Shown: positions 1-28,339, counted from the stretch's first letter. The stretch: 32,000 nt of DNA from an uncultured Actinomycetota bacterium (GCA_963742725.1 CAVUMX010000003.1:225087-257086); one strand, 5' to 3'. Notes: generated by a model from the sequence alone, not told the origin. Numbers and translations: made by a program.

Positions 1-17
1 CTCGGCCAAGGTGGGCA

Positions 18-941
18 TCACGGTCGCCGTACCTCCTTCGGTAGCTGGAACACGACGGTCTCGGTGGTCACCGGCCGCTCCTCGACCTCCAGCGGGCCGA
101 GCGTGCGGAGCCGCTCCAGGATTGCCTCGACGACTGCCGGCGGCGCGGAGGCGCCCGCGGTCAGCGCCACCGTCGTGACGCCGTCCAACCAGGCCGGATC
201 GATGTCGTCCGGGCCGTCGACGAGAAACGCGTCGGTGCCGTCGCGGCGGGCCAGCTCCACGAGCCGCACCGAGTTCGACGAGTTCGCCGAGCCGACCACC
301 AGCGCGAGGTCGGCCTCGGTCACCACGGCGCGCAGTGCCTTCTGACGGTTGGTGGTGGCGTAGCAGATGTCGTCGGAGGACGGCGCCGCGACATCGGGGA
401 ACCGCTCGCGCAGGGCGGAAGCCACCTCGGCCGCCTCGTCCACGGCGAGTGTGGTCTGCATCACGTACGAGACCCGCCCGTCGGCCTGGAGACCTGCCAC
501 GTCGGCGGAGGTCTCGACGAGCCGTATCCGGCCGGGCGCCTGGCCCAAGGTGCCTTCGGACTCCTCGTGCCCGGCATGGCCGATCAGCACGACGGTGTCG
601 CCGCGGTTCACGTAGCGGCGCGCCTCCGCGTGCACCTTGGTCACCAGCGGGCACGTCGCGTCGATGACCTCTAGGTCCCGCGCGTGCGCCTCTGCCCGCA
701 CCGCCGGTGACACGCCGTGGGCCGAGAACACGACGGTCGAGCCGGGCGGCACCTCGTCCAGTTCCTCGACGAACACTGCGCCCCGCCGCTCCAGTTCGGC
801 GATCACGTGGACGTTGTGCACGATCTGCTTGCGCACGTAGACCGGAGCGCCGTGGATCTCGATCGCGCGCTCGACGATCTCGATGGCCCGCTCCACACCG
901 GCGCAGAACGAGCGAGGGCCGGCGAGAAGCACTCGGCGCAT
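18..941 (-). CDS. ispH: 4-hydroxy-3-methylbut-2-enyl diphosphate reductase (IspH/LytB), MEP pathway
   Basis: Translation from the ATG at 941 ([21 protein letters not shown]...) is collinear with IspH, including the three cluster-Cys contexts [16 protein letters not shown] and [10 protein letters not shown]. The ORF-track start at 1085 only adds an Arg-rich extension. The ATG at 941-939 overlaps the upstream gene's TGA (ATGA). Confidence 0.93.
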
Positions 942-1948
942 CAGTGGTCCCTCGCCGCGACGAAGCGGGCTGTCGCGAGCAGTTCGGCCTTCACCCCGGC
1001 CGGGATCGCGACCTCGTCGAGGCAGCGTTCCGCGCCGGCGAGCTGGCGTGCCAGCTCCTGTTCGCTCCACTGTCGCCCGCCGCACTCCTCGATGAGGGCG
1101 GCGACCGTCTCCAGCTGCTGCCGGTCGAGCGGGCCCGATTGGCAGTAGATCTCGGCGAGGCGCGCGGAGGCCGCTGTACGGGCGGACAGCGCCGCCACGA
1201 CCGGCGCCGACTTCTTGCGCGCCTGCAGATCGGCGAGCACCGGCTTGCCGAGTGCACCGGGGTCGCCCCAGATCCCGAGCATGTCGTCGGCGAGCTGGAA
1301 CGCCAGCCCCAGGTGGGTACCGAAGCCGGCCATCGCGCTGACCAGCGCAGGCGGGGCGCCGGCGACCAGTGCGCCGAGGGAGCAGGCCGCGCTGAGCAGC
1401 GCCGCGGTCTTGCCGGCCGCCATCGTCAGGTACTCCTCCACGGTCACGTCGGTCCGGCGTTCGAAGTCCAGGTCCGCTACCTGGCCGGCGATGAGCTGCT
1501 GGACGGTGGCCGCGAGCGCGCGGGCGGCGCGGGGCTCGTGCTCCACCAGCACGCCGAGCGCGGAGGTGAGCAGCACGTCACCGGCCAGGATCGCCGACGA
1601 CGTGCCGAAGACCGTCCACGCGGCCGGCCGGTGCCGGCGTTCGGTGTCGCCGTCCATGATGTCGTCGTGCAGCAGCGAGAAGTCGTGCACCAGCTCGACC
1701 GCGACGCCCGCCGGGATGCCACGCTCCGGTGCGGCGCCCGCGGCCTGCGCGGCCAGCAACGCCAGCGCCGGGCGTAGGGCCTTGCCCGCGCCCGTCGCGA
1801 CATGCTCGCCGTGCTCGTCGAGCCAGCCCTGGTGATAGCCGACCACGTTGCGAATTTCGGGGCTCAACACCGCGGCGGCCTGGCGCAGTGCGGGCAGCAC
1901 CGTCTCCCTGGCGGCGATCAGCGTCGGGAGTTCGAGGGTTTGGGTCAT
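941..1948 (-). CDS. polyprenyl diphosphate synthase (trans-isoprenyl diphosphate synthase family, GGPP-synthase-like); chain length not determinable by eye
   Basis: ATG at 1948 ([10 protein letters not shown]...). First Asp-rich motif [10 protein letters not shown] and second motif [13 protein letters not shown]. The stop at 941-943 overlaps the ispH start. The longer ORF-track N-terminus (to 2233) looks like non-coding read-through. Confidence 0.9.
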
Positions 1949-2282
1949 TCGCTGCCAGCCTCTCTGACTGTCGCTGGGGTAGAGAGCGAAGTGGGTTGCT
2001 AGCAGCGTGCGGTGGCCGGGCGGCGCACCAAAATGCCGTTCCGTTGAGCGGTACGGAACCGAATCGATGCCCAGCCGGGTGCTAGGGCTCCGGCGCCCGC
2101 GCGCCTGCCGCTGCTCGGCCACCTGCTGCCGCTCAGCTGCCAACAGTTGGCGTTCTTCCGGTCGCTGCGCGCCTACGGCCCACCCTGACCTGGTGCCGCG
2201 GACCCTCGTCCCGGACGCGCGGAAGTTCGGCATGGGCGTCCAGATCGAGAAGGCGCGCCGACGATCGGAAACGGGCTCGTCT

Positions 2283-2870
2283 CTTCGTCGCGGCCGCCGA
2301 TGTCCTCACCGCGCGACCGCCGTTTCCTCGCCGGGCTCACCCGGCGGATGCTGCTGTCGAGCCCGATCCCGCGGAAGCCGCCGACGCGGTCCAATCGCGA
2401 GTCCGAGCCGCGCGGCGGCGTCTGAACGAAGCGCTCTGGCGGATCGTCACCGAGTACCGCGCCAACACCGCCGGCCGCGACGTCCTCCTGTCGATGCTGC
2501 GCGACGCGAGACGGGCGCGCGGATGTCTGACCAGCAGCTCTTCGACAAGCCGATGACCATGCTGCTCGCCGGGACCGAGACGTCGGCGAACGCGCTCTGC
2601 GGGAGGCGTCGCCACCACCCGTGACAGAGGTCCCTTGCCAGTGTCGATCTCTGCCCCGATCAGGGTGGAACCTGGATCGCCGGCACGGTGGCCGGCCGGG
2701 CCACCCTCTGGAATCCCCGGTACTTGCCGCCGCCACTCGGCTCCATGTGGTGGAGTCACATGCTGGGCCAGGTCGAGCCCGGTGCCGAGACGCGGGTCGT
2801 CTCCCGAGCCTTCATCCGAGAGAACGGTGCCTCCGGTGCTGTGGCGTGGCCCCGCTCCCTTGCGCGATGA
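2283..2870 (+). pseudogene. cytochrome P450 relic (frameshifted, internally deleted, heme Cys lost)
   Basis: One frame reads ...RLNEALWRIVTEYRANTAGRDVLLSMLRDAR. A shifted frame continues MSDQQLFDKPMTMLLAGTETSANAL, an I-helix AGxET motif, then hits a stop. Further frames give WIAGTVAGRATLWNPRYLPPPLGSMWW (like ...HRDPRYFPDP..FDPDRW) and RAFIRENGASGAVAWPRSLA (a degenerate FxxGxRxCxG region without Cys). No ExxR K-helix segment is visible. Confidence 0.5.
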
Positions 2871-3224
2871 CGGTCACCCGCCGCACGGTCCTGGCCGGCA
2901 GCGTCGCCGCGACCTGGTCGTCGGCGGCTGCTCGTCCTCGGACGAGCGGCCGCCGCAGACGGACGTACCGGCGCACCCGCCACGGAACCACGCCACCGTG
3001 GGCGCGTTGCGTCGCGGCCCACCGAGGCCCTGCGGACGCTGGCCGAAAGGGCCGAAGACGCCCCGCAGGGCACGCAGCTCACCGTCGGGCTGGGCGCGGC
3101 CCAGTTCCACCACGCCGGCTCACCGACCGGCGTCCTCTCAGCTGACGGCGATGCCACCGTTCCCGGGCGACGTGCTCGATCCGGCGCAGAGCCACCGTGA
3201 GGCTCTCAGGGGGTCACTCCATAC

Positions 3225-4049
3225 CTAGTCAACAAGCCCGGTAGGTACGTGCTCGGGGTCACGCGTCGGCTGCCGATTGATAACGCGCCGATACACGATT
3301 CCGGGGAGGTTCTCAGCCAGCCCCGGCAGGAGCCGCGGTATGAAGCGAAGCGGACCGATCACGCCGGGTGTCACAAGGAACCTGTTTCGTCGCAAGGACT
3401 TCTCAGTCGCGCGCACGACGTCGTCAGGCGACATTGGTTGGAAGAAGCCGGTTGCCATGGAGCGGCTGATTGGCATCTGCTCCAACAACGGAGTCCTCAC
3501 CGCGGGAGGATATACGCACGCGATCTTGACGCCACTGCCCCGGAACTCCTGACGGAGCGCCCGCGCGTACAACGAGACGGCGGCCTTTGTGGTCGGGTAG
3601 GCACCCTCATGATATGTCGGAAATATTCCGCCGGATGATGAGGACATCACGACGACGACGCCACGACCTCGCCTGGTTATCTGGGGGAGAACGGACCCCA
3701 CAGCCCATACGGTCCCCAGGTAGTTGACCATGGCCAACCTGTGCCAGACATCCGCTTCGGTGGTCGACATCAAACCGTCTCCGCCTACAGCCGCGCTGGT
3801 CACGACACCATCGCAGGGCAGACGCCTGACGACTTCGGCGAGTGATTTCGGATCAGCGACATCTGCTTCCACCGGTGTTACAAGCCGATACTGATCTGCG
3901 AGATCCGTCAAACCCGCGACATTGACGTCAACCGCGACAACGGGTATCCCCGCCGTGGCGATTCGCTCAGCGAAGGCTCGACCTATGCCGCTCGCGGCGC
4001 CGGTGACCAGGACTCGACTGGAACCATGCCAGGTGGGATCGGTATTCAC
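3225..4049 (-). CDS. short-chain dehydrogenase/reductase (SDR) family oxidoreductase
   Basis: 274-aa ORF with the Rossmann motif VLVTGAASGIGRAF and the catalytic YPTTK (YxxxK) preceded by a Ser-rich VVMSSSSG. Last gene of the lower-G+C operon. Confidence 0.9.
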   Translation of the reverse strand: MNTDPTWHGSSRVLVTGAASGIGRAFAERIATAGIPVVAVDVNVAGLTDLADQYRLVTPVEADVADPKSLAEVVRRLPCDGVVTSAAVGGDGLMSTTEADVWHRLAMVNYLGTVWAVGSVLPQITRRGRGVVVVMSSSSGGIFPTYHEGAYPTTKAAVSLYARALRQEFRGSGVKIACVYPPAVRTPLLEQMPISRSMATGFFQPMSPDDVVRATEKSLRRNRFLVTPGVIGPLRFIPRLLPGLAENLPGIVYRRVINRQPTRDPEHVPTGLVD

Positions 4050-4062
4050 GGACGTACCTCCA

Positions 4063-5577
4063 TCAGAGGAGTTCCCTCATCGGGGATTGGTTGCCACGTC
4101 GGCGGAGGTGCCGGCGAGGGGATGTCCAGAAGAACTGCGCGAGAGCTGCGAACACCGATGGCGTGGGAGACGCGCCAAAGAGGAGCTTGGCCGCCAGACT
4201 CGGTGTCCACCTCAAGCGGCTCCGGATAACGGTTTTCGTACGAGTGAACTCACGTAGGCCTTCCACGCCCTTCAAGCGCCCCTGCCCGCTCAACTTCGTT
4301 CCGCCGAACGCGACGCCGGGTATGCCCGCGCCAAATATCGCATCGTTAATGTCCACCGTACCTGCGGAAATACCCGCTGCCAGCCGCCTCGCCCGGGCAC
4401 TGTTCCGGCTAAACACGCTTGCGCCCAGCCCATAGGGGGTTTGATTGGCCAACGTGATGGCGTGCCGCTCGTCGTCTGTATGCACAACGGAGATCACCGG
4501 CCCGAAACTCTCCTCTTGAAACAGTTCTGTATGTGGCCGAACGTCCACTACGACAGTCGGTTCGAACCCGACAAGCCCGTTGTCGGTCGTCCGGTGACCT
4601 CCCGCGAGGATTCGGGCACCATCCGCCTGTGCCGCCGCGAGCCTGCGCTGCAGAACCTCTGCCTGCGAAGGTCGCATGAGCGGCGCTGCCCACGCCGAGT
4701 CGGCAGTCATGGCCTTGGCGGCGTCCACCAGCTCATCCACGAAACGGTCGTGGACCGTCCGGCAGACGATTACACGCTGGACTGCCATACACGTCTGGCC
4801 GCCATTCAGAAAGGCAGCGCCGGCAGCCGAACGAGCAGCGTCGCGTAGATTGGCGTCGCTCCAGACAACCATGGGGTCGTTCCCGCCGAGCTCCATCACC
4901 ACCGGAGTCATCGTTTGCGCGGCTTCCACCAGGACCTGCCGTCCTGTGGTCGTGCTGCCCGTGAACACGATCTTGTCCACGCCCGATCGCACCAGCGCCT
5001 GACCTGTCTCCCCATTCCCTGTTACAGGTTGAACGAGATCGAGGCCAGCGGAATTGACGACCTGCGCAAGCAACTGTCCCACTCGCGGAGTGTGTTCGGA
5101 CGACTTCAGCACAACGGTATTCCCCGCAGCGAGCGCGTTCGGGATCGATTGCATAGGTATCGCCACCGGATAGTTCCACGGCGCTATGACTCCGACGACG
5201 CCGAGCGGCTCGTAATGCCGTTCGGCCGCCTTGAGAACGAAAGGCCCTGTCGATACCGACTCCGAACGCAATTTTCGCGGAGCGACCTTCGCCGACCACG
5301 CCATACAGGTACATGCTGAAATGATTTCAAGCCACGCCGCAGCCAACGACTTGCCAGTCTCTGCAGCGTCCAGCTCGGCCAGTCGCCTGCCGTTGTCCGC
5401 GACTGCGTCGCGGACCAGAAGCAGATGACGCCGACGATCGCGCGTCGAATAGGCCGACCATTCCACTGCCACTTCACGAGCCTTCGCCACAGCGACGTCG
5501 ACAGCCGCGCCGTCCATCATGGTGCTACCCCCGTTGTCGCCCCGGGTTCCGACACAACTTTCGGCAGCTCTCTTCAT
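4063..5577 (-). CDS. NAD(P)-dependent aldehyde dehydrogenase family protein
   Basis: 504 aa with PWNYP, FTGSTTTGRQV, catalytic Glu in VMELGGNDP and catalytic Cys in NGGQTCMAVQR. The ATG at 5577-5575 overlaps the TGA of the upstream HAD gene (ATGA). Confidence 0.92.
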   Translation of the reverse strand: MKRAAESCVGTRGDNGGSTMMDGAAVDVAVAKAREVAVEWSAYSTRDRRRHLLLVRDAVADNGRRLAELDAAETGKSLAAAWLEIISACTCMAWSAKVAPRKLRSESVSTGPFVLKAAERHYEPLGVVGVIAPWNYPVAIPMQSIPNALAAGNTVVLKSSEHTPRVGQLLAQVVNSAGLDLVQPVTGNGETGQALVRSGVDKIVFTGSTTTGRQVLVEAAQTMTPVVMELGGNDPMVVWSDANLRDAARSAAGAAFLNGGQTCMAVQRVIVCRTVHDRFVDELVDAAKAMTADSAWAAPLMRPSQAEVLQRRLAAAQADGARILAGGHRTTDNGLVGFEPTVVVDVRPHTELFQEESFGPVISVVHTDDERHAITLANQTPYGLGASVFSRNSARARRLAAGISAGTVDINDAIFGAGIPGVAFGGTKLSGQGRLKGVEGLREFTRTKTVIRSRLRWTPSLAAKLLFGASPTPSVFAALAQFFWTSPRRHLRRRGNQSPMRELL

Positions 5578-6278
5578 GCGGACAGCTCCTTTGCGGCCTG
5601 CGGCGACCTTGAACGTCCTGGTGTCCCGGCGGCTCGAAGCAACTTAATGACCTCGTGCAGCGAGTGCACAGTCGATTCAGTACTCTCGCAGGTGCCTGCT
5701 CGATCAATAAGCACACCGTGCATACCAACGGCGCGGGCACCGCGCACGTTCAGAACCTCATCGTCGACGAACATGCACTCTTCGGGCCTCAACCCCAATT
5801 CGTCCGCGACGCGACGGTACGCGGCGGGAGCTGGCTTCTGAATGGGCAGCGCATTGACGATGGCGTCGAAAAACTCGGGTTCGAGGCCGGCTTGGAGCAA
5901 TGTTGATCGCACGTTTGTCAAAGGATGGTTCGTCAATAACGCAAGTTGGAATCCACGCTGCTTCAGGGCGAGCAGGCAGGGCGTGGTATCAGGATACTGA
6001 GTGAAGGCGGTGTCGTATTCTCCGGTTAGGCGCGCCAACTCTTCGACGTCCCTGTCCGTGCCACCGAATTTCGCGACGAGCGCCGTCCAGAAGGACCGAA
6101 TTATCAGGGTGTCGGTCGAAGGCGCAGCCGATGGATCGTGAGTCAACGACGACCAGACCTCGTAGAGGTGTGCAAGTTCCAGGTCAGGCAGGACCTGGCG
6201 GAACTTGGCGACCAGACCGGCCTCGTCATAGTGGAGCAATGTCTGATCGCGATCAAACACGACTGCGCGAATAGTCAC
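5574..6278 (-). CDS. HAD-superfamily hydrolase (subfamily IA-like phosphatase)
   Basis: A GTG at 6278 is preceded by AGGGGGAGCC. HAD motif I is VVFDRDQTLL (DxDxT), motif II LALLTN, motif III IQKPAPAAY and motif IV FVDDEVLNVRGARAVG. It overlaps the 3' end of the cyclase gene by 26 nt. The ORF-track start at 6443 lies inside the cyclase gene. Confidence 0.85.
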   Translation of the reverse strand: MTIRAVVFDRDQTLLHYDEAGLVAKFRQVLPDLELAHLYEVWSSLTHDPSAAPSTDTLIIRSFWTALVAKFGGTDRDVEELARLTGEYDTAFTQYPDTTPCLLALKQRGFQLALLTNHPLTNVRSTLLQAGLEPEFFDAIVNALPIQKPAPAAYRRVADELGLRPEECMFVDDEVLNVRGARAVGMHGVLIDRAGTCESTESTVHSLHEVIKLLRAAGTPGRSRSPQAAKELSA

Positions 6279-7764
6279 GGCTCCCCCTATAGTCCGTTCG
6301 CGGGGACGCTTCCCTCGATTGCGTATCGTAAAGAAGCTTGGCCGCCAGAACCGTGGACCGGACCACACGTTCAGGCGCGTACAGGGCCTTGCCGATCCAC
6401 AACTCGGCCAGTGGCGCACTGCTAAGGCGCTCCAATGCGGCACGGCCCGCGGAGATCGCTCTACGCTCAGCAGTGCCAGATCGGTTGGCGTGCATCAGAG
6501 CCAGGAGTGCATAGGCCGTCTCCTCCGCCGTGCTTGAGGAACATCCCCACGATCCGTCGGCCTTTTGGGTCGCGAGAATCCAGTCAAGCGCGGCTCCGCA
6601 CATTTCATCGGCCAGCCCTGACAGGGCCGCGACGGCGTGGCTTGTGGCGTAGTACGGCGAAACGTTCCACTTATCGGTCCAGTTTCCCAGCGGCAGCTGG
6701 GACCTCCGGAGCATGTCAATCGCCGTCTCCATGCGATCGGCGCGTTCGGCTCCACAAGCCCGCAGCGCATGGACTACATGGATGTTCGACGAGACCGAAG
6801 GGTTCCGCTCAAAGTCGTACGTGTTGTACCCATCCGCGCCAAGGAAGCTGTCGAGGACGCTGCTGTCAGCGGGCAGGCCACAGTAGGCACGCAATCGTAG
6901 TAGCACAGCCGTATCATCGCTGTCGGGCGGCATGCCTTCGGCCGACATCGCCAAGGCCCCATCAGTCGCATATTCTGATAGTGCCGCCACGGCGGGCCGG
7001 AGTTGATTCGGCGGTATGCCCGCGAGCGCAAGATTGTTGAGGACCCATGCTCGGTCGAATAGTTCGTAGCGGTAGATAGTCGGAAAGCCGGCATCGGGCG
7101 TCGCGGCCGATGCGTCGCGCAGGTAGTCGATCGTGGAGGGCGACTGAAGTCGACCGTACGCGTACGCCGATGCCGACGGAGAGCAACCGAGCGATCCATC
7201 ACTGCATTGCAGACCGGCCAGGTCGATGCCTTCTATTTGTGCGTCGTCCAGAGTTTCCAATGTGTGGACCAGGGTCGTATGTTCCCAGCCTTTGCGAGGT
7301 AGCATGCCAAGCTTCTCGGTTCTTATCGATCCGACCCACGACAGCGCGTCATACGGCAGATCAAGGCCGAGCCTGGTCGCGCGATTCAGGAGGGCGGGGA
7401 CAATCAGCTCGAAGGCGACGGTGGTTTCGGCGTCAGAGTCCTTGAGATTGGCGAGCGAGATGGACTGTGATCGAAGGTAGTTGCAGCCTTCTTCAACCTG
7501 GGAGGCGCCTTTGCCGAGTTCGGCCAGAACAACAGTGGATGCCAGCGTGCATACGAGGCGATCGTGTCGATCGAAAAACGACGCGCCCCACGATCCGTCA
7601 CGACGTTGATTTCGCAATAGCCATTGCAATGCGCCGAGGCCGACAGTCTTGCCCGCGGCTCCACCGGCGCAGGCAAGTGCGACGATGGCGGTGTCGTAGG
7701 CGGATGAGGTCAAGGAAAGGCGCGCAGGCTGGTCGATATACTCTTGGATGTTATGAGTATCCAT
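6253..7764 (-). CDS. class II (protonation-initiated) diterpene cyclase, copalyl/halimadienyl-diphosphate-synthase-like
   Basis: About 500 aa with the DxDD motif GMPPDSDDTAV (codons at 6913-6924) and QW-like repeats (LLRNQRRDGSWG, ILATQKADGSWG, LRRSQLPLGNW). The size matches bacterial class II diterpene cyclases. Start is the ATG at 7764; the ORF track uses a TTG at 7773. Confidence 0.88.
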   Translation of the reverse strand: MDTHNIQEYIDQPARLSLTSSAYDTAIVALACAGGAAGKTVGLGALQWLLRNQRRDGSWGASFFDRHDRLVCTLASTVVLAELGKGASQVEEGCNYLRSQSISLANLKDSDAETTVAFELIVPALLNRATRLGLDLPYDALSWVGSIRTEKLGMLPRKGWEHTTLVHTLETLDDAQIEGIDLAGLQCSDGSLGCSPSASAYAYGRLQSPSTIDYLRDASAATPDAGFPTIYRYELFDRAWVLNNLALAGIPPNQLRPAVAALSEYATDGALAMSAEGMPPDSDDTAVLLRLRAYCGLPADSSVLDSFLGADGYNTYDFERNPSVSSNIHVVHALRACGAERADRMETAIDMLRRSQLPLGNWTDKWNVSPYYATSHAVAALSGLADEMCGAALDWILATQKADGSWGCSSSTAEETAYALLALMHANRSGTAERRAISAGRAALERLSSAPLAELWIGKALYAPERVVRSTVLAAKLLYDTQSREASPRTDYRGSRDYSRSRV

Positions 7765-7797
7765 GATCAACAATCATCCCTTCGTCCCTAGCGGTCT

Positions 7798-9105
7798 CTA
7801 CGTGTCGTCGTCTGTGACCGTGGCCAGCACTGTCATCGGAAAGGCGATTGTCGGTCCCTGTGCCACACCGCGAACAGGCTCCTGGGGCATATGAACGTGA
7901 AACCCCGGCGCGCGAAATATCATGGCCAAGGCGATAGCGAGTTCGTAGCTTGCGAATGCGGCGCCGAGGCATCGGCGAGTGCCCACGCCGAAGGGCAGAT
8001 AGTCGGTCTGGCTGTGCCGCTGGCCGAGAAACCGCGATGGGTCGAACCTGTTCGGCTCCGGATAGCTGGCGGGCCTGCGGTGCGCGACGTGGATGCAGGG
8101 GACGACTTCCGTATCTCGGGTGATGACCTGCTCTGATGTGTGGATGTCCGCCCGCACACGTCGCGTGAGTCCAGTGGGAACGACGGAGCTAAGTCGCAGT
8201 ACTTCCTGACACACCGCAACCAGGTAGGGTTCGTTGGCCATGACGTTCGGCTCGACTCCGTCACCGAGCGCGCGCAGCGCGCCGGCGAGCGTGTCTCGAA
8301 CGTCGGAGTGTGTGGCGACGAAAAGGGCGCCCCATGCCAAGGTGGCGGCCGTCGTTTCGAAGCCCGCCACGAGCAGGCTGACGACGTGGCCACGGATCTG
8401 CTGGTCAGACAGGCTGGCATCGCCGAGATCGCGCTGCCGCAGGAGATGACTGACGAGGTCGATGCTGTCCGGGTCAGGTGACTCCGCGCGGCCGGCGACT
8501 TCCTGGGCGATGAAGTCATCGAGCAAATCGCACAGATTCTGGATACGGACCCGGTCCGCGTTCTTGGAATCCAAGGTGGACAGTAGTTCGGCGGCAAGAG
8601 CGGTGACCCGCTCGACGTGATCTACGGAAATATCTCCAAACAGCAGGCGTACCAACACACCCATGGTCACGTGGCGGGCGAGCTCAATCAACGGCACGGA
8701 GCCCGCGGTCTTAGCTCCATCCAGGGCGACTTCAGTCTGGTCGGCGATAAGCGTGCCCAGTTGCCGCATCCGATTGCCCATCAGCGGCCAGCCCAGCAGT
8801 TTTCTGGCCCGTAGGTGATCCTCGCCGTTGAGAAAGACAATCGAATGCTCGCCGACAATCGTTTGAAACGCAGTCGATCCGGTCGAGTCGAGGTTGTGTC
8901 CGTTGGCGACAAGTACCTCGCGAATCGCCTCAGGCGATCCGAGGAAGACCCGCTTCGGTACGCCACCGTGGCTGACTGTGAAGTCCGCACCGAACGTGGC
9001 GTGGTATCGGTTGAATGCCGCAATCGGGTCGGTTTCGACATCCTGTGCCTGTTTGGCTGTCAGATCCGGGCCGGGGGGAAGCTGGGGACGTCCGGCCGCG
9101 CTCAT
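7798..9105 (-). CDS. cytochrome P450 monooxygenase
   Basis: I-helix LLVAGFETTAATLAW, ExxR (EVLR) and heme loop FGVGTRRCLGAAFA. The ATG at 9105-9103 forms an ATGA overlap with the upstream synthase stop (9102-9104). The ORF track offers an alternative ATG at 9123. Confidence 0.93.
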   Translation of the reverse strand: MSAAGRPQLPPGPDLTAKQAQDVETDPIAAFNRYHATFGADFTVSHGGVPKRVFLGSPEAIREVLVANGHNLDSTGSTAFQTIVGEHSIVFLNGEDHLRARKLLGWPLMGNRMRQLGTLIADQTEVALDGAKTAGSVPLIELARHVTMGVLVRLLFGDISVDHVERVTALAAELLSTLDSKNADRVRIQNLCDLLDDFIAQEVAGRAESPDPDSIDLVSHLLRQRDLGDASLSDQQIRGHVVSLLVAGFETTAATLAWGALFVATHSDVRDTLAGALRALGDGVEPNVMANEPYLVAVCQEVLRLSSVVPTGLTRRVRADIHTSEQVITRDTEVVPCIHVAHRRPASYPEPNRFDPSRFLGQRHSQTDYLPFGVGTRRCLGAAFASYELAIALAMIFRAPGFHVHMPQEPVRGVAQGPTIAFPMTVLATVTDDDT

Positions 9106-10307
9106 TCCGCTGCTCCGGAACATCTCTGAATTGGAAGCCCACTGATGTGAGCTTCATGCAACCGTCGGTGCGGATCCGTGGGCGCATGTCTCGTCTTTAT
9201 GCAGGCGAGGTCGGTGAGGGTCAGAAGCTCCTGTCGACTGGTCGACGCCAGGTGCGCCGCATCCAGGCTGCGCCTGGCGGCTTGCAGGTGTCGATCGGCT
9301 TCGGCTCGGCCCCAGTCGAGTGCCCCCAGCGACTCCAGCCGCGCGGTCATGGGGCGGATCTCAGCTTCGTCGGGCATATGTGGGCGGGCATAGAAGCCGA
9401 TGAGATCGTCGCCGGGCGGGGCGACAGAGAGCGCGTAAGTGACCGGCAAGGACTTCTTACGGGTACGAATGTCAGCGCCGACGGGCTTGCCGGTTTGTGT
9501 CGGGTCGCCCCAGATACCCAGCATGTCGTCGGCTAGTTGGAAGGCCAGGCCGAGGTGCCGTCCGTAGGCTTCCAGAGCTGTGATCGTCGCCGTATCGGCT
9601 CCGCCGAGCAGGGCGCCAAGGTGTGCGGCACAGGCGACCAGCGATGCGGTCTTGCCGTCGACCATGCGATAGCAGTCGGCGGGCGTGACGCTGCTGCGCG
9701 TCTCGAAGTCAAGGTCAAGGGCTTGGCCGATAACGAGCTGCCTATAGGTCTCGGCCAGGACGCTCGCGGCAGCCACACCGCTGGCGTTGCCGTGCCGCAG
9801 GAGCACACTGAATGCGAGGACGATGAGCGCGTCCCCCGCCAGGAGAGCCGCCGATTCGCCGAAGACTGTCCAGGCGGTTGGTCGGTGTCGCCGAAGCTGG
9901 TCGTGGTCCATTACATCGTCTTGGAGAAGCGAGCTATTGTGCGCCAGTTCGACCGCGACGGCACCGGGCAGGGCGGCGTTCAAGGAACCTCCCACGCCTT
10001 GGGCACATCGGATGACAATGGCCGACCGCAGCATCTTTCCGTGGTCACCGTTGGATTGCCGACCGTCGGCGGTAGTCCATCCGAAGTGGTAACTCACAAC
10101 TCGGCGGATGGACTCGTCCAGTTGCAGCACCGCGGCACGAAGCTCTGCGTCCACGTGCCTTTTGAACTCGCCATTCGCCTCGGGAACGGCCGTTCGCTCC
10201 AGGACCCGCGCTGCTACCGCCGTGGGTATGACGTCCATGAGAGGGCCTTCGGGTGCAGGGGGACTTTGGTCACCTCTGACAGTGCGCCCGGTCACAGCCG
10301 AACTCAT
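9102..10307 (-). CDS. polyprenyl diphosphate synthase (GGPP-synthase-like), first gene of the lower-G+C operon
   Basis: Motifs LLQDDVMDHDQLRRHRP and [13 protein letters not shown]. It is a paralogue of the 941-1948 gene. An alternative start at ATG 10238 (MDVIPT..., preceded by GAAGG) would give a more typical N-terminus. Confidence 0.88.
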   Translation of the reverse strand: MSSAVTGRTVRGDQSPPAPEGPLMDVIPTAVAARVLERTAVPEANGEFKRHVDAELRAAVLQLDESIRRVVSYHFGWTTADGRQSNGDHGKMLRSAIVIRCAQGVGGSLNAALPGAVAVELAHNSSLLQDDVMDHDQLRRHRPTAWTVFGESAALLAGDALIVLAFSVLLRHGNASGVAAASVLAETYRQLVIGQALDLDFETRSSVTPADCYRMVDGKTASLVACAAHLGALLGGADTATITALEAYGRHLGLAFQLADDMLGIWGDPTQTGKPVGADIRTRKKSLPVTYALSVAPPGDDLIGFYARPHMPDEAEIRPMTARLESLGALDWGRAEADRHLQAARRSLDAAHLASTSRQELLTLTDLACIKTRHAPTDPHRRLHEAHISGLPIQRCSGAAE

Positions 10308-10310
10308 CAG

Positions 10311-10700
10311 TCAGGCGACCAGACCCGGAACGTGAACTTCGGTAATTCGCGCAGGGCCTGATGTCCTGGGCCGGACACGACATATGTCATGCGGCCGGAG
10401 CGCCGCGGGTCGCGGGCAGTGATGGAGAAGCACGGTGAGGCTGGCGCGGCGAGCCGGAGCGCCGCGAGCAGACCGGCGAGCAGCCCGTGACCGGCGGGCG
10501 GCACTGTCGAGGAGAGGGGTGAACGTTGGACCCACCGGAACGCGGTCACGTGGTCGACCTCCACACCGCGTTTGGCCAGCAGTTCCTCGGCATCGCGGTA
10601 GGACGGCCCGAACGCTCTGTGCCACCAGCCACCAGCCAGCAGGCGCCAGCGATCTGCGCCCCCGGGGACGTGCCGGCGCTGGCTTGGACGGGTCGGACCG
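10311..10700 (-). mobile_element. IS6-family transposase remnant (N-terminal HTH part only, frameshifted and truncated)
   Basis: The minus strand reads ...RWRLLAGGWWHRAFGPSYRDAEELLAKRGVEVDHVTAFRWVQ, then after a frame change FTPLLDSAAR. This matches my memory of IS6/IS6100-type transposase N-termini (..VRWYLR..LSYRD.EELLAERG..VDH.T.YRWVQRFTP..). I saw no DDE catalytic region and no terminal inverted repeats. Confidence 0.55.
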
Positions 10701-10781
10701 CAGGCTCAACGTGGCGTCCCTGGGGCGGCGTGCCTGAACGACCACGGTGACCGTACGCAAAGCCGCAGGTACGCTGGGTCG

Positions 10782-13286
10782 GTGGATCCCCTCCGGCGCG
10801 GGCCTGGTGGACGGGCCGCGCGCCGCCCGGTCATCGGCATGCTGACAGAGACCCTCGACCTCGAACTCTGGGCCGAGCAGTGGCTCGGCGCGGTCGACGG
10901 CGCGCGGTTCACCGAGTGCGACTTCATCTGCTTCTGCGGCCGGGCGCTGCAGGGCGCGGGGCCCGCCGGCCGCGCGAACGCGATCTACGACCTCGTCACG
11001 CCGCGGTCGGTCGACGCGCTCGTCGTCTGGACGAGCACGCTCGGGATCAACGTCGGCAGCGAGGGCGTGGCGGCGTTCTGCCAGCGCTTCGCCCCGGTGC
11101 CGATCGTGAGTGTGGAGCAGTCGCTGGGTCAGGCGCCCGTGGTCGGCATGGACGACCGGCAGGGCATGCACGCGGTCGTCAGCCACCTGATCGAGGCACA
11201 TGGCCGGCGGCACATCGCCTTCGTGCACGGGCCTGCCAACCACGAGGGCGCCGGCGAGCGGTACCGGGGCTACCGCGGCGCGATGGCCGAGCACGGGCTC
11301 ACCGTCGATCCGGACTGGGTGTCCACGCGCCCGTCGTCGTGGGCGCCGGAGGAGGCGGCCGCCTCGGTCGCCCGCATGCTCCGGCACGGGCGCCCGCCCG
11401 AGGCGGTGGCGGCCGCCAACGACCACATCGCGCTCGGTGCCCTCTACGCGCTGGCCGCCGCCGGTCTGCGCGTGCCCGACGACGTCGCGGTGGTCGGATT
11501 CGACGACTTCATGACGATCCGCGAACACGATCTGTGGTTCGACAGCGCCCCAGACAGCGGGGACGAGGTCAGCACCAGCACCAGCGAGGGTGAGGTCACC
11601 GTCGGAGCGCTGTCGCTTACCACGGCGCACGCACCGTTCCACGAGATGGGCCGCCGCTCAGTCGCGGTCGCCCTCGACCTGATCCGTGGCGAGACAGTGC
11701 CGCCGCTGGTCAAGGTGCCGACAGAGTTGGTCGTGCGGCGTTCCTGCGGCTGCTCGCCGCACACTGGCCGCCACGGCCGCGGCGCCGGCGATCAGCAGCC
11801 CGCGACCGTGTCGCCGGAACGCCCCACGATCCAGCTCCGGCGGGCCGCCAGGCACCGCGCCACCCAGCTCCCGGAGGACTGGCCCGAGCGGCTCACGAGC
11901 GAGTTCGAGCGCGCGATCCGCGGGGAGGACCACGTCTTCCTCGGCCTGCTCGACGAACTCGTGCTGTCGAACCTGCGCTCGGTGGAGAAGGCCGTGAACT
12001 GGCCCCGCGCGCTGACCGCCCTGCGCCAGCTGGTCGAGCGCCCCACCGCGATGCCGGAGGAGGCCGTGCGCGCCGAGGACCTGTGGCTGCGCGCCCAGCT
12101 GTCCGTGAACGAGATCGTCGAGCGGCAGTGGCGTTACGCGCAGGTGCTCACCGACCGGCGGAACAAGATCATGCGTGAGGTCGGGCAGCGGCTGATCGCC
12201 GCGTCCGACGTCAAGGAGCTGGCCGACGTCCTGGCCGAGCAACTGCCCAAGATCGCCCTGCCGGGCTGCTACCTCGCCCTGTACGAGTCGGCGATGGCGA
12301 CCGAGACCGTGTCCGGCCGGCCACCGCAGGATGCGGCGCGCGACCGGTCGCGGTTGCTGCTCGCCTACGAGAACGGCGCGCGCCTCGACGTCAACGGCGA
12401 ATCGCCGGTCCTCGACTCGGTCGAGGTCGTGCCAGGCGGCCGGCTCGACCGGGCGGAGCCCTACAGCATCGTGGCCGCTCCGCTGTACTTCCAGGAGGAG
12501 CATCTCGGGTTCGCGCTGTTCGAGCTCGGGCCGCGGATCGGCTGGATCTACACGGCGCTGCAGGAGCAGATCAGTACCGCGCTGCACCGCGCGCTGCTGG
12601 TCGAGCGCGAGCGGCTGGCGCACATCGTCGTCCAGGAGGCGCACCGGCGCGAGGAGCGCCAACGGCTCGCCGGCGAGCTGCACGACTCCGTCTCGCAGGC
12701 CCTGTTCTCGATGACGCTGCACACGCGCGCCGTGCAGCTGGCGGTGGAGCGGGGCGAATACCAGTCCGGTCACGTGGTCGACGGGCTGGCCCAACTCAGC
12801 CAGTTGACCGAGAGCGCGCTGGCGGACATGCGGTCACTGATCTTCCAGCTCCGCCCGGATGCACTGCGCGAGGAGGGTCTCGTCACCGCGATCCGCAGGC
12901 ACGCCGCCGCGGTGTCGGTCCGGGAAGGGCTCGTCGTCGACGTGTACGCGGACACCGAGCGGTTGCCGCTCGACGAGCGTGCGGAGGAAGAGCTGCTGCG
13001 CGTGATCCAGGAGGCGCTGCACAACTGCGTCAAGCACGCCCGGGCCGGTCATGTGGAGATCCGGATGGCGGAGTCCGGTGAGACGCCGGGGACGCTGATC
13101 GTGGAGGTCGCCGACGATGGCATCGGCTTCGACCCGGGCGCGCGCTACCCCGGGCACCTCGGCCTTGACGGCATGCGTGAACGCGCGCAGCGCCTCGGCG
13201 GACGCCTGGCCATCGACAGTTCTCCCGCCGGGTCGACGGTCCGCGCGGTGCTGCCCGGCCTCCTCGCGGACCGGCCTGCGACCTAG
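10782..13286 (+). CDS. cytoplasmic sensor histidine kinase: LacI-type periplasmic-binding-fold ligand domain + GAF-like middle region + HisKA_3/HATPase_c (NarL-class kinase)
   Basis: The N-terminal third resembles a LacI/PBP1 sugar-binding core (IAFVHGPANHEGAGERYRGYRGAMAEHGL..., AANDHIALGALYALAAAGLRVPDDVAVVGFDDF) without an HTH. H-box AGELHDSVSQALFS, N-box EALHNCVKHA, G-boxes DDGIGFD and GHLGLDGMRERAQRLGG. No obvious TM segment. The GTG start at 10782 is uncertain; ATG 10839 is possible. Confidence 0.88.
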   Translation: MDPLRRGPGGRAARRPVIGMLTETLDLELWAEQWLGAVDGARFTECDFICFCGRALQGAGPAGRANAIYDLVTPRSVDALVVWTSTLGINVGSEGVAAFCQRFAPVPIVSVEQSLGQAPVVGMDDRQGMHAVVSHLIEAHGRRHIAFVHGPANHEGAGERYRGYRGAMAEHGLTVDPDWVSTRPSSWAPEEAAASVARMLRHGRPPEAVAAANDHIALGALYALAAAGLRVPDDVAVVGFDDFMTIREHDLWFDSAPDSGDEVSTSTSEGEVTVGALSLTTAHAPFHEMGRRSVAVALDLIRGETVPPLVKVPTELVVRRSCGCSPHTGRHGRGAGDQQPATVSPERPTIQLRRAARHRATQLPEDWPERLTSEFERAIRGEDHVFLGLLDELVLSNLRSVEKAVNWPRALTALRQLVERPTAMPEEAVRAEDLWLRAQLSVNEIVERQWRYAQVLTDRRNKIMREVGQRLIAASDVKELADVLAEQLPKIALPGCYLALYESAMATETVSGRPPQDAARDRSRLLLAYENGARLDVNGESPVLDSVEVVPGGRLDRAEPYSIVAAPLYFQEEHLGFALFELGPRIGWIYTALQEQISTALHRALLVERERLAHIVVQEAHRREERQRLAGELHDSVSQALFSMTLHTRAVQLAVERGEYQSGHVVDGLAQLSQLTESALADMRSLIFQLRPDALREEGLVTAIRRHAAAVSVREGLVVDVYADTERLPLDERAEEELLRVIQEALHNCVKHARAGHVEIRMAESGETPGTLIVEVADDGIGFDPGARYPGHLGLDGMRERAQRLGGRLAIDSSPAGSTVRAVLPGLLADRPAT

Positions 13287-21218: not shown

Positions 21219-21694
21219 GCAGATCGCCCCCGCGGGTCGGCCTGCTGCTCCAGCCGCGCCTCGACCGCGCAGTTCTCGCCCGATCCAGGACCGGTTGTCT
21301 CGCCGCGCTTGAGCGCCTTCTTGTACCGGTTGAACAGCGAGCGCATCAGCAGCAGCTTCGGCATCGACGGCGCCTTGCGGATGTCCAGCAGCCCGCTCAC
21401 GATCGCCTCCCGACCGCCCAGCTCGCCGCTGGTGAGGCGGTGCAGGGTGAGCGGTTCGGTGCGAATCACGATGTCGGCCTGCTCGTACGGGATCGCACCA
21501 GGCTCGATCGCGCGACGGTCCCGCCCCACTGTGAGCAGGTACGGGGTGGGCTCCGGGCCGCCGGTCTGGAACTCGTACAGCACGGTGAGCGCGCCACCCG
21601 CCAGCCGCTGCGCCAGGGTCGGGTTGCGGCGGCTCACCTCCAGCATGTCCCGTAGCTCGGCGACCACGTCCTCGATGGTCATCTCGGTGCTCAT
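21215..21694 (-). CDS. SCP2 (sterol-carrier-protein-2-like) lipid-binding domain protein
   Basis: 159 aa from the ATG at 21694, which forms an ATGA overlap with the radical SAM stop. The SCP2-like pattern is ALTVLYEFQTGG..PYLLTVGRDRRAIEPG...ADIVIRTEPLTLHRLTSGELGGREAIVSGLLDIRKAPSMPKLLLMRSLF. Confidence 0.75.
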   Translation of the reverse strand: MSTEMTIEDVVAELRDMLEVSRRNPTLAQRLAGGALTVLYEFQTGGPEPTPYLLTVGRDRRAIEPGAIPYEQADIVIRTEPLTLHRLTSGELGGREAIVSGLLDIRKAPSMPKLLLMRSLFNRYKKALKRGETTGPGSGENCAVEARLEQQADPRGRSA

Positions 21695-22872: not shown

Positions 22873-22912
22873 CTGACCCCCCTTCCCTGGTGTGCCCGCG
22901 CCCGGGGCGCGG

Positions 22913-24366: not shown

Positions 24367-24451
24367 TCGGACTTCCTTCTCATTTGGGGTATCAATCACG
24401 CAGCCACCGTACGAGAACCGGGCGGCCACCGGTACCTGCTTCATCCGCAAT

Positions 24452-28329: not shown

Positions 28330-28339
28330 CGGCAGCCCC

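What the first reader, a model, noticed from the sequence alone, without database searches (positions are those of the whole stretch)
3225..10307. A diterpenoid operon has a class II cyclase but no class I synthase; a HAD phosphatase, SDR and aldehyde dehydrogenase take its place
**Seen in the sequence.** The gene order is polyprenyl synthase, P450, DSDD class II cyclase, HAD (DxDxT), ALDH, SDR. Neither strand shows a DDxxD/NSE class I terpene synthase.

**Established knowledge.** Class II diterpene cyclases release a bicyclic prenyl diphosphate. That product normally needs a class I synthase, or in M. tuberculosis the Rv3378c-type enzyme.

**Inference.** Here the diphosphate may be hydrolysed by the HAD enzyme to the primary alcohol. 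The SDR and ALDH would then oxidise it to a labdane/halimane-type carboxylic acid, and the P450 would add a further oxygen. This would be a class I-independent route.
Basis: partly seen in the sequence, partly recalled or inferred. Interest (0 to 1): 0.72.

Follow-up and report, generated by a model that had tools for sequence, protein, structure and literature searches.

The report
Diterpenoid operon using phosphatase, not synthase
A six-gene operon in a high-GC actinobacterium pairs a ring-forming (class II) diterpene cyclase with a HAD phosphatase, two dehydrogenases and a P450 instead of the usual second terpene synthase; related clusters keep the same logic, so it probably makes an oxidised bicyclic diterpene acid by a route already known in fungi and in bacterial sesquiterpene pathways.

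Summary
Window 3225-10307 (minus strand) holds six tightly packed genes: polyprenyl synthase, P450, class II cyclase (DSDD; closest solved structure Rv3377c), HAD phosphatase (DRDQT), aldehyde dehydrogenase and SDR. No class I terpene synthase and no Rv3378c-type enzyme was found anywhere in the 32 kb.

The genes form a low-GC3 island. All six are under purifying selection (dN/dS 0.17-0.34).

In the 80 closest genome loci of this cyclase family, the cyclase sits within 5 kb of a class I synthase (31) or an Rv3378c homologue (33). Here a rare HAD clade takes that position, overlapping the cyclase stop by 26 nt.

Related actinobacterial clusters keep the same functional set in shuffled order. 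The phosphohydrolase varies (HAD-IA, HAD-IB, Nudix) and so does the alcohol dehydrogenase (SDR, Zn-ADH), while the ALDH stays orthologous.

All enzyme activities remain inferred.

The logic has precedents: AstC/AstI/AstK, AsDMS, the Streptomyces drimenol Nudix pair and the fungal labd cluster. I therefore rate it a new bacterial diterpene variant of a known kind, of moderate interest.

The parts
9102..10307 (-). Polyprenyl diphosphate synthase, probably a GGPP synthase. The likely start is ATG at 10238 (378 aa). Motifs are DDVMD and DDMLGIWGD, and residues -4 and -5 before the first motif are small (Ser-Ser).
   Evidence: PF00348 at 2e-56. The best NCBIfam functional models are GGPP synthase IdsB and short-chain IdsA, both below cut-off. 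The start matches the 367-aa orthologue in L082. The C-terminus differs from relatives because about 125 nt are missing at the IDS/P450 junction. dN/dS is 0.34.
7798..9123 (-). Cytochrome P450 (441 aa), E-class. Motifs are AGFETT, EVLR and FGVGTRRCLG. It is the presumed oxygenase acting on the diterpene scaffold.
   Evidence: PF00067 at 3e-55. Weak NCBIfam similarity to the terpene-oxidising P450s CYP170A1 and PtlI. Homologues of 35-42% identity occur in L002, L170 and L171. dN/dS is 0.32.
6253..7764 (-). Class II (beta-gamma) diterpene cyclase of 503 aa, with D281-S-D283-D284. It belongs to the Rv3377c/Haur_2145-type family. Gly458 occupies the position of the Tpn2 G485 / Rv3377c A475 / PtmT2 D502 product switch.
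   Evidence: PDB 6vpt E=6e-63 over the full length and 5bp8 E=2e-42. The sequence is identical to P0001. The invariant residues in alignment A1 include the acid motif. The switch-residue rule comes from PMC9814783. dN/dS is 0.17.
5574..6278 (-). HAD-IA phosphatase (234 aa, GTG start). Motif I is F8-D9-R-D11-Q-T13, motif II T116, motif III K148 and motif IV D172-D173. It has an alpha-helical C1 cap. Its start overlaps the cyclase stop by 26 nt. Proposed role: terpenyl diphosphate phosphatase.
   Evidence: PF00702 and PF13419. An exact 234-aa protein is on record. Motif conservation is shown. The AF2 model has pLDDT 91.6, and Foldseek returns generic HAD-IA enzymes. The clade is rare. It is linked to class II cyclases in L001, L002, L086, L170, L167 and a JGI 7.6-kb contig. 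dN/dS is 0.21.
4063..5577 (-). Hydrolytic aldehyde dehydrogenase (504 aa). The catalytic Glu is in MELGGNDP and the catalytic Cys in GGQTCMA. About 50 aa form a C-terminal tail beyond the Pfam domain. Proposed role: terpenoid aldehyde to acid.
   Evidence: PF00171 at 1e-121. The sequence is read. Orthologues of 54-57% identity occur in the related clusters L002, L170, L171 and L173. dN/dS is 0.22.
3225..4049 (-). Classical SDR (274 aa) with TGAASGIG and YPTTK. An Asp ends beta-strand 2 (VVAVD), which suggests NAD+ preference. Proposed role: terpenoid alcohol to aldehyde.
   Evidence: PF00106 at 2e-34. The sequence is read. Homologues of 58-60% identity occur in L002 and L170. dN/dS is 0.19. 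The cofactor preference follows the general SDR rule and is an inference.
2293..2831 (-). Deletion scar between the SDR gene and IDS2. It holds remnants of a secreted repeat-protein gene (2665-2831) and a P450 fragment (2293-2664). It is not a degraded terpene synthase.
   Evidence: blastn against L082-L085. No ORF here has a Pfam hit, and there is no clean coding frame.
18..1948 (-). IDS2 (941-1948, 335 aa) and IspH/LytB (18-941, 307 aa). These are host-GC precursor-supply genes that border the island.
   Evidence: Pfam and NCBIfam. They are 92-94% identical to L082 genes that keep the same position. GC3 is 0.86-0.88.

Best explanation
**What it is.** The region is a horizontally acquired six-gene operon for an oxidised bicyclic diterpenoid. 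It removes the diphosphate by hydrolysis rather than by class I ionisation.

**Proposed steps.**
1. The polyprenyl synthase makes GGPP. This is inferred.
2. The DSDD cyclase protonates GGPP and forms a bicyclic C20 diphosphate. The family assignment is shown. The substrate and product are inferred. Gly458 at the Tpn2 G485 / PtmT2 D502 switch position favours a rearranged halimane- or clerodane-type product over copalyl diphosphate.
3. The translationally coupled HAD-IA phosphatase removes the diphosphate to give the primary allylic alcohol. It probably does so as two successive phosphates through an aspartyl-phosphate intermediate, as shown for the HAD domain of AsDMS. This step is inferred from motifs, position and conserved linkage.
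4. The NAD-type SDR oxidises the alcohol to the aldehyde, and the ALDH oxidises the aldehyde to the carboxylic acid. This is inferred.
5. The P450 adds further oxygen. This is inferred.

**Family context.** The operon belongs to a small family of actinobacterial clusters. In that family the phosphohydrolase and the alcohol dehydrogenase are interchangeable, while the ALDH is conserved.
For: **Family assignments and motifs.**

**No rival partner enzyme.** The window has no class I synthase and no Rv3378c-like protein.

**The HAD occupies the partner position.**
- Of the 80 closest genome loci of the cyclase family, 31 have a class I synthase and 33 an Rv3378c homologue within 5 kb.
- One such partner matches Rv3378c at E=4e-62.

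**The HAD-cyclase pairing recurs.**
- The HAD gene directly follows or overlaps the cyclase gene in three lineages: the window, L001 (cyclase 59% identical) and L086 (cyclase 30% identical).
- The HAD clade is rare: 8 representative clusters at E<=1e-30.

**The same functional set recurs.**
- Lentzea L002: HAD 50%, ALDH 55%, SDR 58%, P450 41%, cyclase 41-45% identical.
- L170.
- Streptomyces sp. NPDC019443 L171, which uses a non-orthologous HAD-IB and SDR but an ALDH 57% identical.
- L173, which has Nudix, a Zn-ADH, an ALDH 55% identical and an asparagine-synthetase-like gene. That last gene would need a carboxylate substrate.
- Kutzneria L003, which has a Nudix gene next to the cyclase.

**The genes are maintained.** All six have dN/dS of 0.17-0.34.

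**Biochemical precedents.**
- AstI and AstK dephosphorylate drimanyl diphosphate (PMC5024094).
- AsDMS releases two Pi in sequence (PMC12232559).
- The Streptomyces cav cluster combines a class II cyclase, a Nudix hydrolase and a P450 (PMC11035983).
- The fungal labd cluster combines a class II synthase, a phosphatase, an SDR, an ALDH and P450s (PMC10744899).
Against: - No activity has been measured for any of the six proteins.
- The HAD fold search returns only generic HAD-IA enzymes and says nothing about substrate.
- Two loci, L167 and L059, carry a HAD homologue together with an Rv3378c-like gene. L167 also has a nucleoside hydrolase. The HAD clade is therefore not strictly an alternative to Rv3378c and could act on nucleotides there.
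- Lentzea has a class I synthase 7.6 kb from the cyclase, beyond a SARP regulator.
- Only 32 kb of the genome was seen, so a class I synthase elsewhere cannot be excluded.
- The window holds a UbiA-family protein about 18 kb away.
- In the fungal labd pathway the SDR and ALDH act at positions other than the former diphosphate carbon. The site of acid formation here is therefore uncertain.
- The IDS chain length is not established. All NCBIfam scores are below cut-off.
Confidence: 0.65

Rival explanations
1. The pathway still uses a diphosphate-ionising enzyme encoded outside the island. This could be a class I synthase elsewhere in the genome, or the UbiA-family protein at about 27.6-28.3 kb. 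The HAD would then have an accessory or unrelated role.
For: Only 32 kb was seen. A UbiA prenyltransferase domain lies in ORF 25723-28329. From my own knowledge, UbiA-type enzymes such as PtmT1 can cyclise ent-CPP. According to PMC9814783, 14% of ent-CPP synthase clusters carry a UbiA-type cyclase. Lentzea has a class I synthase 7.6 kb from its cyclase.
Against: The UbiA gene sits in a separate cluster with host-like GC3. In relatives L083-L085 the sequence beyond the IDS side of the island has no match to the window, so linkage to that cluster is not conserved. L086, L170, L171 and L082-L085 have no intact class I synthase within their flanks. In this cyclase family the partner is normally immediately adjacent. 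The recurrent phosphohydrolase would be left unexplained.
Confidence: 0.12
2. The HAD is a nucleotidase or some other phosphatase serving a terpene-nucleoside type of pathway, as in 1-TbAd biosynthesis. It would not be a terpenyl diphosphate phosphatase.
For: A HAD homologue of 38% identity lies between an Rv3378c-like gene and a nucleoside hydrolase in L167. L059 also has both a HAD and an Rv3378c homologue. NCBIfam gives weak similarity to pyrimidine 5'-nucleotidase and GMP/IMP nucleotidase models.
Against: The window, L001, L002, L086, L170 and L082-L085 have no Rv3378c-like gene, and the nucleoside hydrolase query matched none of the loci searched among them. In other members of the cluster family the HAD is replaced by Nudix or HAD-IB enzymes, while the alcohol and aldehyde dehydrogenases persist. 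Those dehydrogenases need a free alcohol.
Confidence: 0.08
3. The route is class I-independent as proposed, but the SDR and ALDH do not act on the former diphosphate carbon. The P450 would hydroxylate a ring methyl or another carbon. The SDR and ALDH would then take that position to a ketone or acid, leaving the C-15 alcohol free or modified in some other way.
For: In the fungal labd pathway the ALDH acts on an aldehyde created by a P450, and the SDR acts as a reductase (PMC10744899). The minimal cluster L086 (IDS, cyclase, HAD, P450) works without an SDR or ALDH. Every related cluster has at least one P450.
Against: The HAD, ALDH and SDR genes are contiguous in the window, in L002 and in L170. 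This favours consecutive steps on one carbon. The Asp at the end of SDR beta-strand 2 suggests an oxidative NAD+ enzyme (sequence).
Confidence: 0.15

Closest known systems
Mycobacterium tuberculosis Rv3377c-Rv3378c (1-TbAd/tuberculosinol) locus, and the Herpetosiphon Haur_2145/2146 type
   Same: The cyclase is most similar to Rv3377c among solved structures (E=6e-63, full length). It belongs to the family whose members pair with Rv3378c homologues in 33 of 80 loci. IDS, IspH and DXS genes accompany the cyclase. From my own knowledge, the Mtb locus has the same make-up.
   Different: No Rv3378c homologue is present. The acid motif is the canonical DSDD, whereas Rv3377c aligns as DCDT at this motif. 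A HAD, an SDR, an ALDH and a P450 are present instead. The product is expected to be an alcohol or acid, not an adenosine adduct.
Streptomyces drimenol clusters (SsDMS; cav cluster with CavC class II synthase, CavB Nudix hydrolase and CavA P450)
   Same: An actinobacterial beta-gamma class II cyclase works with a discrete phosphohydrolase that makes the alcohol and a P450 that oxidises it (PMC11035983). Relatives of the window cyclase in Kutzneria, and the L173 cluster, do use Nudix.
   Different: The precedent is a sesquiterpene (FPP) pathway, whereas this one is presumed to be C20. The hydrolase here is HAD-IA, not Nudix. An SDR and an ALDH extend the pathway towards an acid.
AsDMS drimenol synthase (marine bacteria), and fungal AstC/AstI/AstK
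   Same: HAD-superfamily phosphatases remove the diphosphate from a class II product by stepwise hydrolysis (PMC12232559; PMC5024094).
   Different: In AsDMS the HAD domain is fused to the cyclase, and its DXD motif has diverged to DLG. AstC is itself a HAD-like cyclase. Here a stand-alone, canonical DxDxT HAD-IA accompanies a classical beta-gamma cyclase. There is no specific sequence or fold relationship to those HADs.
Fungal labd / PvCPS-type labdane clusters (LabdA PT-class II, LabdB phosphatase, LabdG SDR, LabdD ALDH, P450s)
   Same: The enzyme inventory is almost the same, and there is no class I synthase. The products are oxidised labdane diterpenoids (PMC10744899).
   Different: It is eukaryotic. 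The prenyltransferase is fused to the cyclase. The role of LabdB was only proposed. Its SDR and ALDH act at positions other than the one proposed here. The proteins are not orthologous.

Membership tests
Class II (beta-gamma, DxDD) diterpene cyclase, Rv3377c/Haur_2145-type | DxDD general-acid motif | tested here: met
   D281-S-D283-D284. D281 and D283 are invariant and D284 is nearly invariant in a 22-sequence alignment.
Class II (beta-gamma, DxDD) diterpene cyclase, Rv3377c/Haur_2145-type | Full-length homology to solved bacterial class II diterpene cyclases | tested here: met
   6vpt E=6e-63 (residues 18-481), 5bp8 E=2e-42 and 7xkx E=1e-34.
Class II (beta-gamma, DxDD) diterpene cyclase, Rv3377c/Haur_2145-type | Uses GGPP and releases a bicyclic diphosphate of defined skeleton | not testable with these tools
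   Only indirect hints are available: an adjacent IDS with small residues before the first Asp-rich motif, and Gly458 at the labdane/clerodane switch position.
HAD-superfamily phosphatase (subfamily IA, C1 cap) | Four catalytic motifs: DxDxT, a Ser/Thr, a Lys and an acidic DD pair | tested here: met
   D9, D11, T13, T116, K148, D172 and D173 are conserved in A3. In the 50-sequence alignment A4, D9 and K148 are invariant and D11, D172 and D173 are nearly invariant.
HAD-superfamily phosphatase (subfamily IA, C1 cap) | Rossmannoid core with an inserted helical cap | tested here: met
   The AF2 model has pLDDT 91.6 and pTM 0.87, with helices spanning residues 19-107 between strands. The best Foldseek hits are HAD-IA enzymes with TM about 0.7.
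HAD-superfamily phosphatase (subfamily IA, C1 cap) | Hydrolyses terpenyl di- or monophosphate | not testable with these tools
   This is inferred only from gene position and conserved linkage to class II cyclases.
Canonical two-synthase labdane-related pathway (class II plus class I) | A class I (DDxxD/NSE) terpene synthase in the cluster | tested here: not met
   No Pfam terpene synthase family matches any gene or gap ORF. An ad hoc class I HMM gives no hit in any window ORF of 80 aa or more at E<=10.
Rv3377c/Rv3378c-type terpene-nucleoside or tuberculosinol pathway | An Rv3378c homologue next to the cyclase | tested here: not met
   There is no tblastn or HMM hit in the window. The same HMM finds homologues next to 33 of 80 related cyclases.
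Class I-independent 'class II cyclase plus dedicated phosphohydrolase' pathways (AstC/I/K, AsDMS, SsDMS/CavB, LabdA/B) | A phosphohydrolase gene is linked to the class II cyclase, and the linkage is conserved across lineages | tested here: met
   Linkage is seen in the window, L001, L002, L086, L170, a JGI 7.6-kb contig and L171 (HAD-IB), and in L003 and L173 (Nudix).
Class I-independent 'class II cyclase plus dedicated phosphohydrolase' pathways (AstC/I/K, AsDMS, SsDMS/CavB, LabdA/B) | The product is the terpene alcohol made by enzymatic dephosphorylation | not testable with these tools
   This needs an in vitro assay or heterologous expression.
Hydrolytic NAD(P)+ aldehyde dehydrogenase | Catalytic Cys and general-base Glu | tested here: met
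   GGQTCMA and MELGGNDP are read from the translation. PF00171 matches at 1e-121.
Classical SDR | TGxxxGxG cofactor motif and YxxxK catalytic motif | tested here: met
   TGAASGIG and YPTTK are present. PF00106 matches at 2e-34.

The most novel reading that the evidence does not exclude
The operon would represent a so far uncharacterised family of actinobacterial diterpenoid clusters. In it, a dedicated and evolutionarily interchangeable phosphohydrolase (HAD-IA, HAD-IB or Nudix) replaces the class I or Rv3378c partner of an Rv3377c-family cyclase. A conserved ALDH then makes halimane- or clerodane-type diterpene acids. This would be a class I-independent diterpene route in bacteria, and a product class with very few bacterial examples.
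Probability: 0.45. Interest if true: 0.55.

Novelty: new variant of a known kind. Interest (0 to 1): 0.45.

Why it matters
Bacterial class II diterpene cyclases are usually read as half of a two-synthase pair. Clusters that lack the second synthase have been noted but left unexplained (PMC9814783).

This work shows that a rare HAD clade, or else a Nudix or HAD-IB enzyme, takes the partner position. It travels with an alcohol dehydrogenase and a conserved ALDH. That gives a concrete, testable rule for mining such orphan class II clusters.

It also points to bacterial halimane-, clerodane- or labdane-type acids as products, and supplies candidate terpenyl diphosphate phosphatases for engineering diterpene alcohols.

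It does not change the conceptual picture. Phosphohydrolase-mediated release is already proven for drimane sesquiterpenes and proposed for fungal labdanes.

Tried and rejected
1. **Six-frame Pfam scan.** I replaced it with scans of the individual gap ORFs and with ad hoc HMM searches of all ORFs.
2. **A hidden class I synthase in the 1-kb gap 2233-3225.** Rejected. Relatives show that the gap is a deletion scar of a secreted repeat-protein gene plus a P450 fragment.
3. **The 346/360-aa protein without a Pfam hit, next to the SDR gene in relatives, as a novel synthase.** Rejected. It has a signal peptide and repeated INxxGxxxG units, so it does not look like a terpene synthase.
4. **The 274-aa protein without a Pfam hit in L001 as an Rv3378c-like enzyme.** Rejected. 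It has no PDB hit, is unrelated to the L167 protein and has a lipoprotein-like N-terminus.
5. **IDS2 as an encapsulin cargo protein with an N-terminal extension.** Rejected. The orthologue starts at MTQTLELP (335 aa), and the model score is below cut-off.
6. **Metagenome scan with the HAD alignment.** The first alignment was too diverse. The second returned mostly generic HADs and no new cyclase-linked case.
7. **Fold search of the HAD model.** It gave no specific functional neighbour.
8. **Source organism.** It could not be named.
9. **Literature searches.** They found no paper on a stand-alone HAD paired with a beta-gamma class II diterpene cyclase in bacteria. The library lacks most subscription journals, so this absence is weak evidence.
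10. **RNA elements and signals.** There are no Rfam hits, and the promoter/terminator scan was not informative.

Full report
**Observation**

The window is high-GC actinobacterial DNA, about 72% GC in the flanks. Six co-directional minus-strand genes fill 3225-10307 exactly as described.

| Gene | Coordinates | Key evidence |
|---|---|---|
| Polyprenyl synthase | 9102-10307, likely start 10238 | PF00348 |
| P450 | 7798-9123 | PF00067 |
| Class II cyclase | 6253-7764, 503 aa | DSDD |
| HAD | 5574-6278, 234 aa | FDRDQT |
| ALDH | 4063-5577 | PF00171 |
| SDR | 3225-4049 | PF00106 |

- The cyclase, HAD, ALDH and SDR sequences exist as identical proteins in public collections, which fixes their starts.
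- The junctions are a 22-nt overlap, a 33-nt gap, a 26-nt overlap, an ATGA overlap and a 13-nt gap. This fits a single operon.
- The six genes have GC3 of 0.67-0.73, against 0.82-0.96 for the flanking genes. The region is therefore an acquired island.

**Absence of a class I synthase**

- Pfam assigns each of the six proteins to a non-synthase family. It finds nothing in the ORFs of the gaps 2233-3225 and 10307-10782.
- None of the other large ORFs of the 32-kb window is a terpene synthase.
- I built ad hoc HMMs for class I synthases and for Rv3378c-like proteins from the neighbours of homologous cyclases. Neither hits any window ORF of 80 aa or more, even at E<=10.
- The 1-kb gap that looks non-coding is explained by comparison with four metagenome contigs, L082-L085. 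These are 91-93% identical and colinear with window 2-10472.
  - They carry a secreted repeat protein and a P450 fragment at that position.
  - Both are mostly deleted in the window.
- The relatives also have an extra 229-aa LytB-like gene upstream of the IDS.
- They also have about 125 nt more at the IDS/P450 junction.

**Are the genes functional?**

dN/dS between the window and L082 is 0.34 (IDS), 0.32 (P450), 0.17 (cyclase), 0.21 (HAD), 0.22 (ALDH) and 0.19 (SDR). The housekeeping-like neighbours IDS2 and IspH give 0.21 and 0.26.

**The cyclase family and its usual partners**

- The closest solved structure is Rv3377c (6vpt, E=6e-63). PtmT2 and Tpn2 follow.
- The only close homologues are a 59% identical protein on a Logan (public sequencing-run assembly) contig and proteins of 49% identity or less. 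Most of the family lies in Chloroflexota and Actinomycetota.
- Among the 80 best genome loci, 31 have a class I synthase and 33 an Rv3378c homologue within 5 kb of the cyclase, usually abutting it. Of the rest, 15 have neither and one (Lentzea) has only a HAD.
- The Rv3378c assignment is solid. The L029 partner matches 3wqk at E=4e-62.
- These proportions agree with the genome-neighbourhood statistics in PMC9814783.
- In the window, the gene in the partner position is the HAD. It overlaps the cyclase stop codon.

**The HAD**

- It has the full phosphotransferase motif set: D9, D11, T13, T116, K148 and D172-D173.
- It includes the Asp+2 residue that separates phosphatases from haloacid dehalogenases. 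The latter distinction is established HAD knowledge.
- The AlphaFold2 model is confident (pLDDT 91.6) and shows a C1-capped HAD-IA fold. Foldseek returns only generic relatives.
- The clade is rare. Only 8 representative clusters reach E<=1e-30 among 1.84 billion proteins.

Contexts recovered for its members:

| Locus | Gene arrangement |
|---|---|
| L001 | cyclase-HAD |
| L086 | IDS-cyclase-HAD-P450, between transposases; this cyclase is only 30% identical to the window's |
| JGI 7.6-kb contig | P450-P450-cyclase-SDR-IDS-HAD |
| Lentzea L002 and L170 | HAD-ALDH-SDR, an opposed P450, then the cyclase |
| L167 | P450, Rv3378c-like, HAD, nucleoside hydrolase, cyclase |

**A conserved cluster family with non-orthologous displacement**

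- Streptomyces sp. NPDC019443 (L171) has DXS-IspG-IDS-HAD-P450-cyclase-SDR-(211 aa)-ALDH-P450.
  - Its HAD is a different subfamily (DIDGT, PF12710) with no detectable similarity to the window HAD.
  - Its ALDH is 57% identical to the window's.
- L173 combines an IDS, a different class II cyclase, a Nudix hydrolase, a Zn-dependent alcohol dehydrogenase, a P450, an asparagine-synthetase-like enzyme and an ALDH 55% identical to the window's.
- Kutzneria L003, whose cyclase is 42% identical, has a Nudix gene next to the cyclase plus IspG, IspH and an IDS.
- So the phosphohydrolase step is filled by three unrelated enzyme types, and the alcohol dehydrogenase step by two. The ALDH persists throughout.
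- This is the pattern expected if the required chemistry is diphosphate to alcohol to aldehyde to acid.

**Mechanism proposed**

1. GGPP is made by the IDS. This is inferred from small residues before DDVMD and from the best models being GGPP synthases, though below cut-off.
2. Protonation-initiated bicyclisation follows. Gly458 aligns with Rv3377c A475, Tpn2 G485 and PtmT2 D502. In Tpn2, G485D switches the product from clerodane to labdane. A rearranged halimane or clerodane diphosphate is therefore somewhat more likely than copalyl diphosphate. This is a weak inference.
3. The HAD hydrolyses the diphosphate stepwise through an aspartyl-phosphate intermediate, as established for AsDMS and for AstI/AstK.
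4. The SDR oxidises the alcohol. An Asp at the end of beta-strand 2 suggests NAD+ preference.
5. The ALDH, with catalytic Cys and Glu present, oxidises the aldehyde to the acid.
6. The P450 hydroxylates the scaffold.

Only the family assignments, the motifs, the gene linkage and the purifying selection are shown. Every catalytic step is inferred.

**Complications**

- HAD homologues co-occur with Rv3378c-like genes in L167 and L059.
- Lentzea has a class I synthase 7.6 kb away, behind a SARP regulator.
- The window contains a separate cluster with a UbiA-family protein.
- In the fungal labd pathway the SDR and ALDH act at other carbons.
- The rest of the genome is unknown.

**Comparison with what is known**

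Four known systems already show a class II product released by a dedicated phosphohydrolase.

- AstC/AstI/AstK (PMC5024094).
- The fused AsDMS (PMC9128629, PMC12232559).
- The Streptomyces SsDMS and cav clusters, which use Nudix (PMC11035983).
- The fungal labd cluster (PMC10744899). It has a nearly identical inventory, although the role of its phosphatase was only proposed.

What appears new here is the combination of three things:

- a stand-alone canonical HAD-IA paired with an Rv3377c-family beta-gamma diterpene cyclase in Actinobacteria;
- the conserved ALDH arm of the pathway;
- the interchangeability of the hydrolase.

I found no paper that describes this. The searchable library is incomplete, so that is not strong evidence.

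**Verdict**

- The novelty is a new variant of a known kind.
- The interest is moderate, at 0.45.

Noticed in passing
window 16845-29527 (minus strand): A second terpenoid or meroterpenoid-type cluster with host-like GC3. It holds an MFS transporter, a UbiH-like FAD monooxygenase, an SHC-like class II cyclase (hopene-cyclase model 132 bits against a cut-off of 431), a radical SAM/SPASM enzyme, ABC transporter genes, a P450 (about 24452-25540), an isopropylmalate/homocitrate-synthase-like domain, a UbiA prenyltransferase and a third polyprenyl synthase.
   Followed up: partly
window 25723-28329 (-): A single 868-aa ORF carries a UbiA prenyltransferase domain (residues 29-247) and an HMGL/isopropylmalate-synthase-like domain (residues 489-838) in the same frame. 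It is either a real fusion or two genes without an intervening stop.
   Followed up: no
window 2293-2831, 9102-9160 and 10232-10240, compared with L082-L085: The window differs from 91-93% identical metagenome relatives by several deletions. It lacks a 229-aa LytB-like gene upstream of the IDS. It lacks about 125 nt at the IDS/P450 junction, which gives the IDS a different C-terminal tail and a 22-nt overlap with the P450 gene. It also lacks most of a secreted repeat-protein gene. A P450 pseudogene fragment remains at 2293-2664.
   Followed up: yes
window 18-1948 and 13917-15677: IspH, a second IdsB-like polyprenyl synthase and a DXS flank the island, so the window holds three polyprenyl synthases in 32 kb. 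From my own knowledge, this precursor-supply set resembles the make-up of the M. tuberculosis Rv3377c-Rv3383c locus.
   Followed up: partly
window 10782-13286 (+): An 834-aa ORF diverges from the operon. It joins a LacI-type periplasmic-binding-like sugar-binding domain to a HisKA_3/HATPase sensor kinase. This is an unusual architecture and might regulate the island. The relatives L083-L085 have a response-regulator gene at the corresponding side instead.
   Followed up: no
L167/L168 268-6670: A cluster of a P450, an Rv3378c-like protein (274 aa, E=0.009 to 3wqk over its full length), a HAD (38% identical to the window HAD), an inosine-uridine nucleoside hydrolase and a class II cyclase. It may be a terpene-nucleoside or terpenyl-purine pathway.
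   Followed up: partly
L173 837-11521: A cluster with an IDS, a class II cyclase of another subfamily, a Nudix hydrolase, a Zn-dependent alcohol dehydrogenase, a P450, an asparagine-synthetase-like enzyme and an ALDH 55% identical to the window's. This suggests a diterpenoid amide product.
   Followed up: partly
L008, L013, L066, L073: Homologues of the cyclase (31-34% identity) occur in archaeal MAGs (Thermococci, Thermoplasmata, Thaumarchaeota and Candidatus Pelearchaeum). None has a class I, Rv3378c-like or HAD partner within 5 kb.
   Followed up: no
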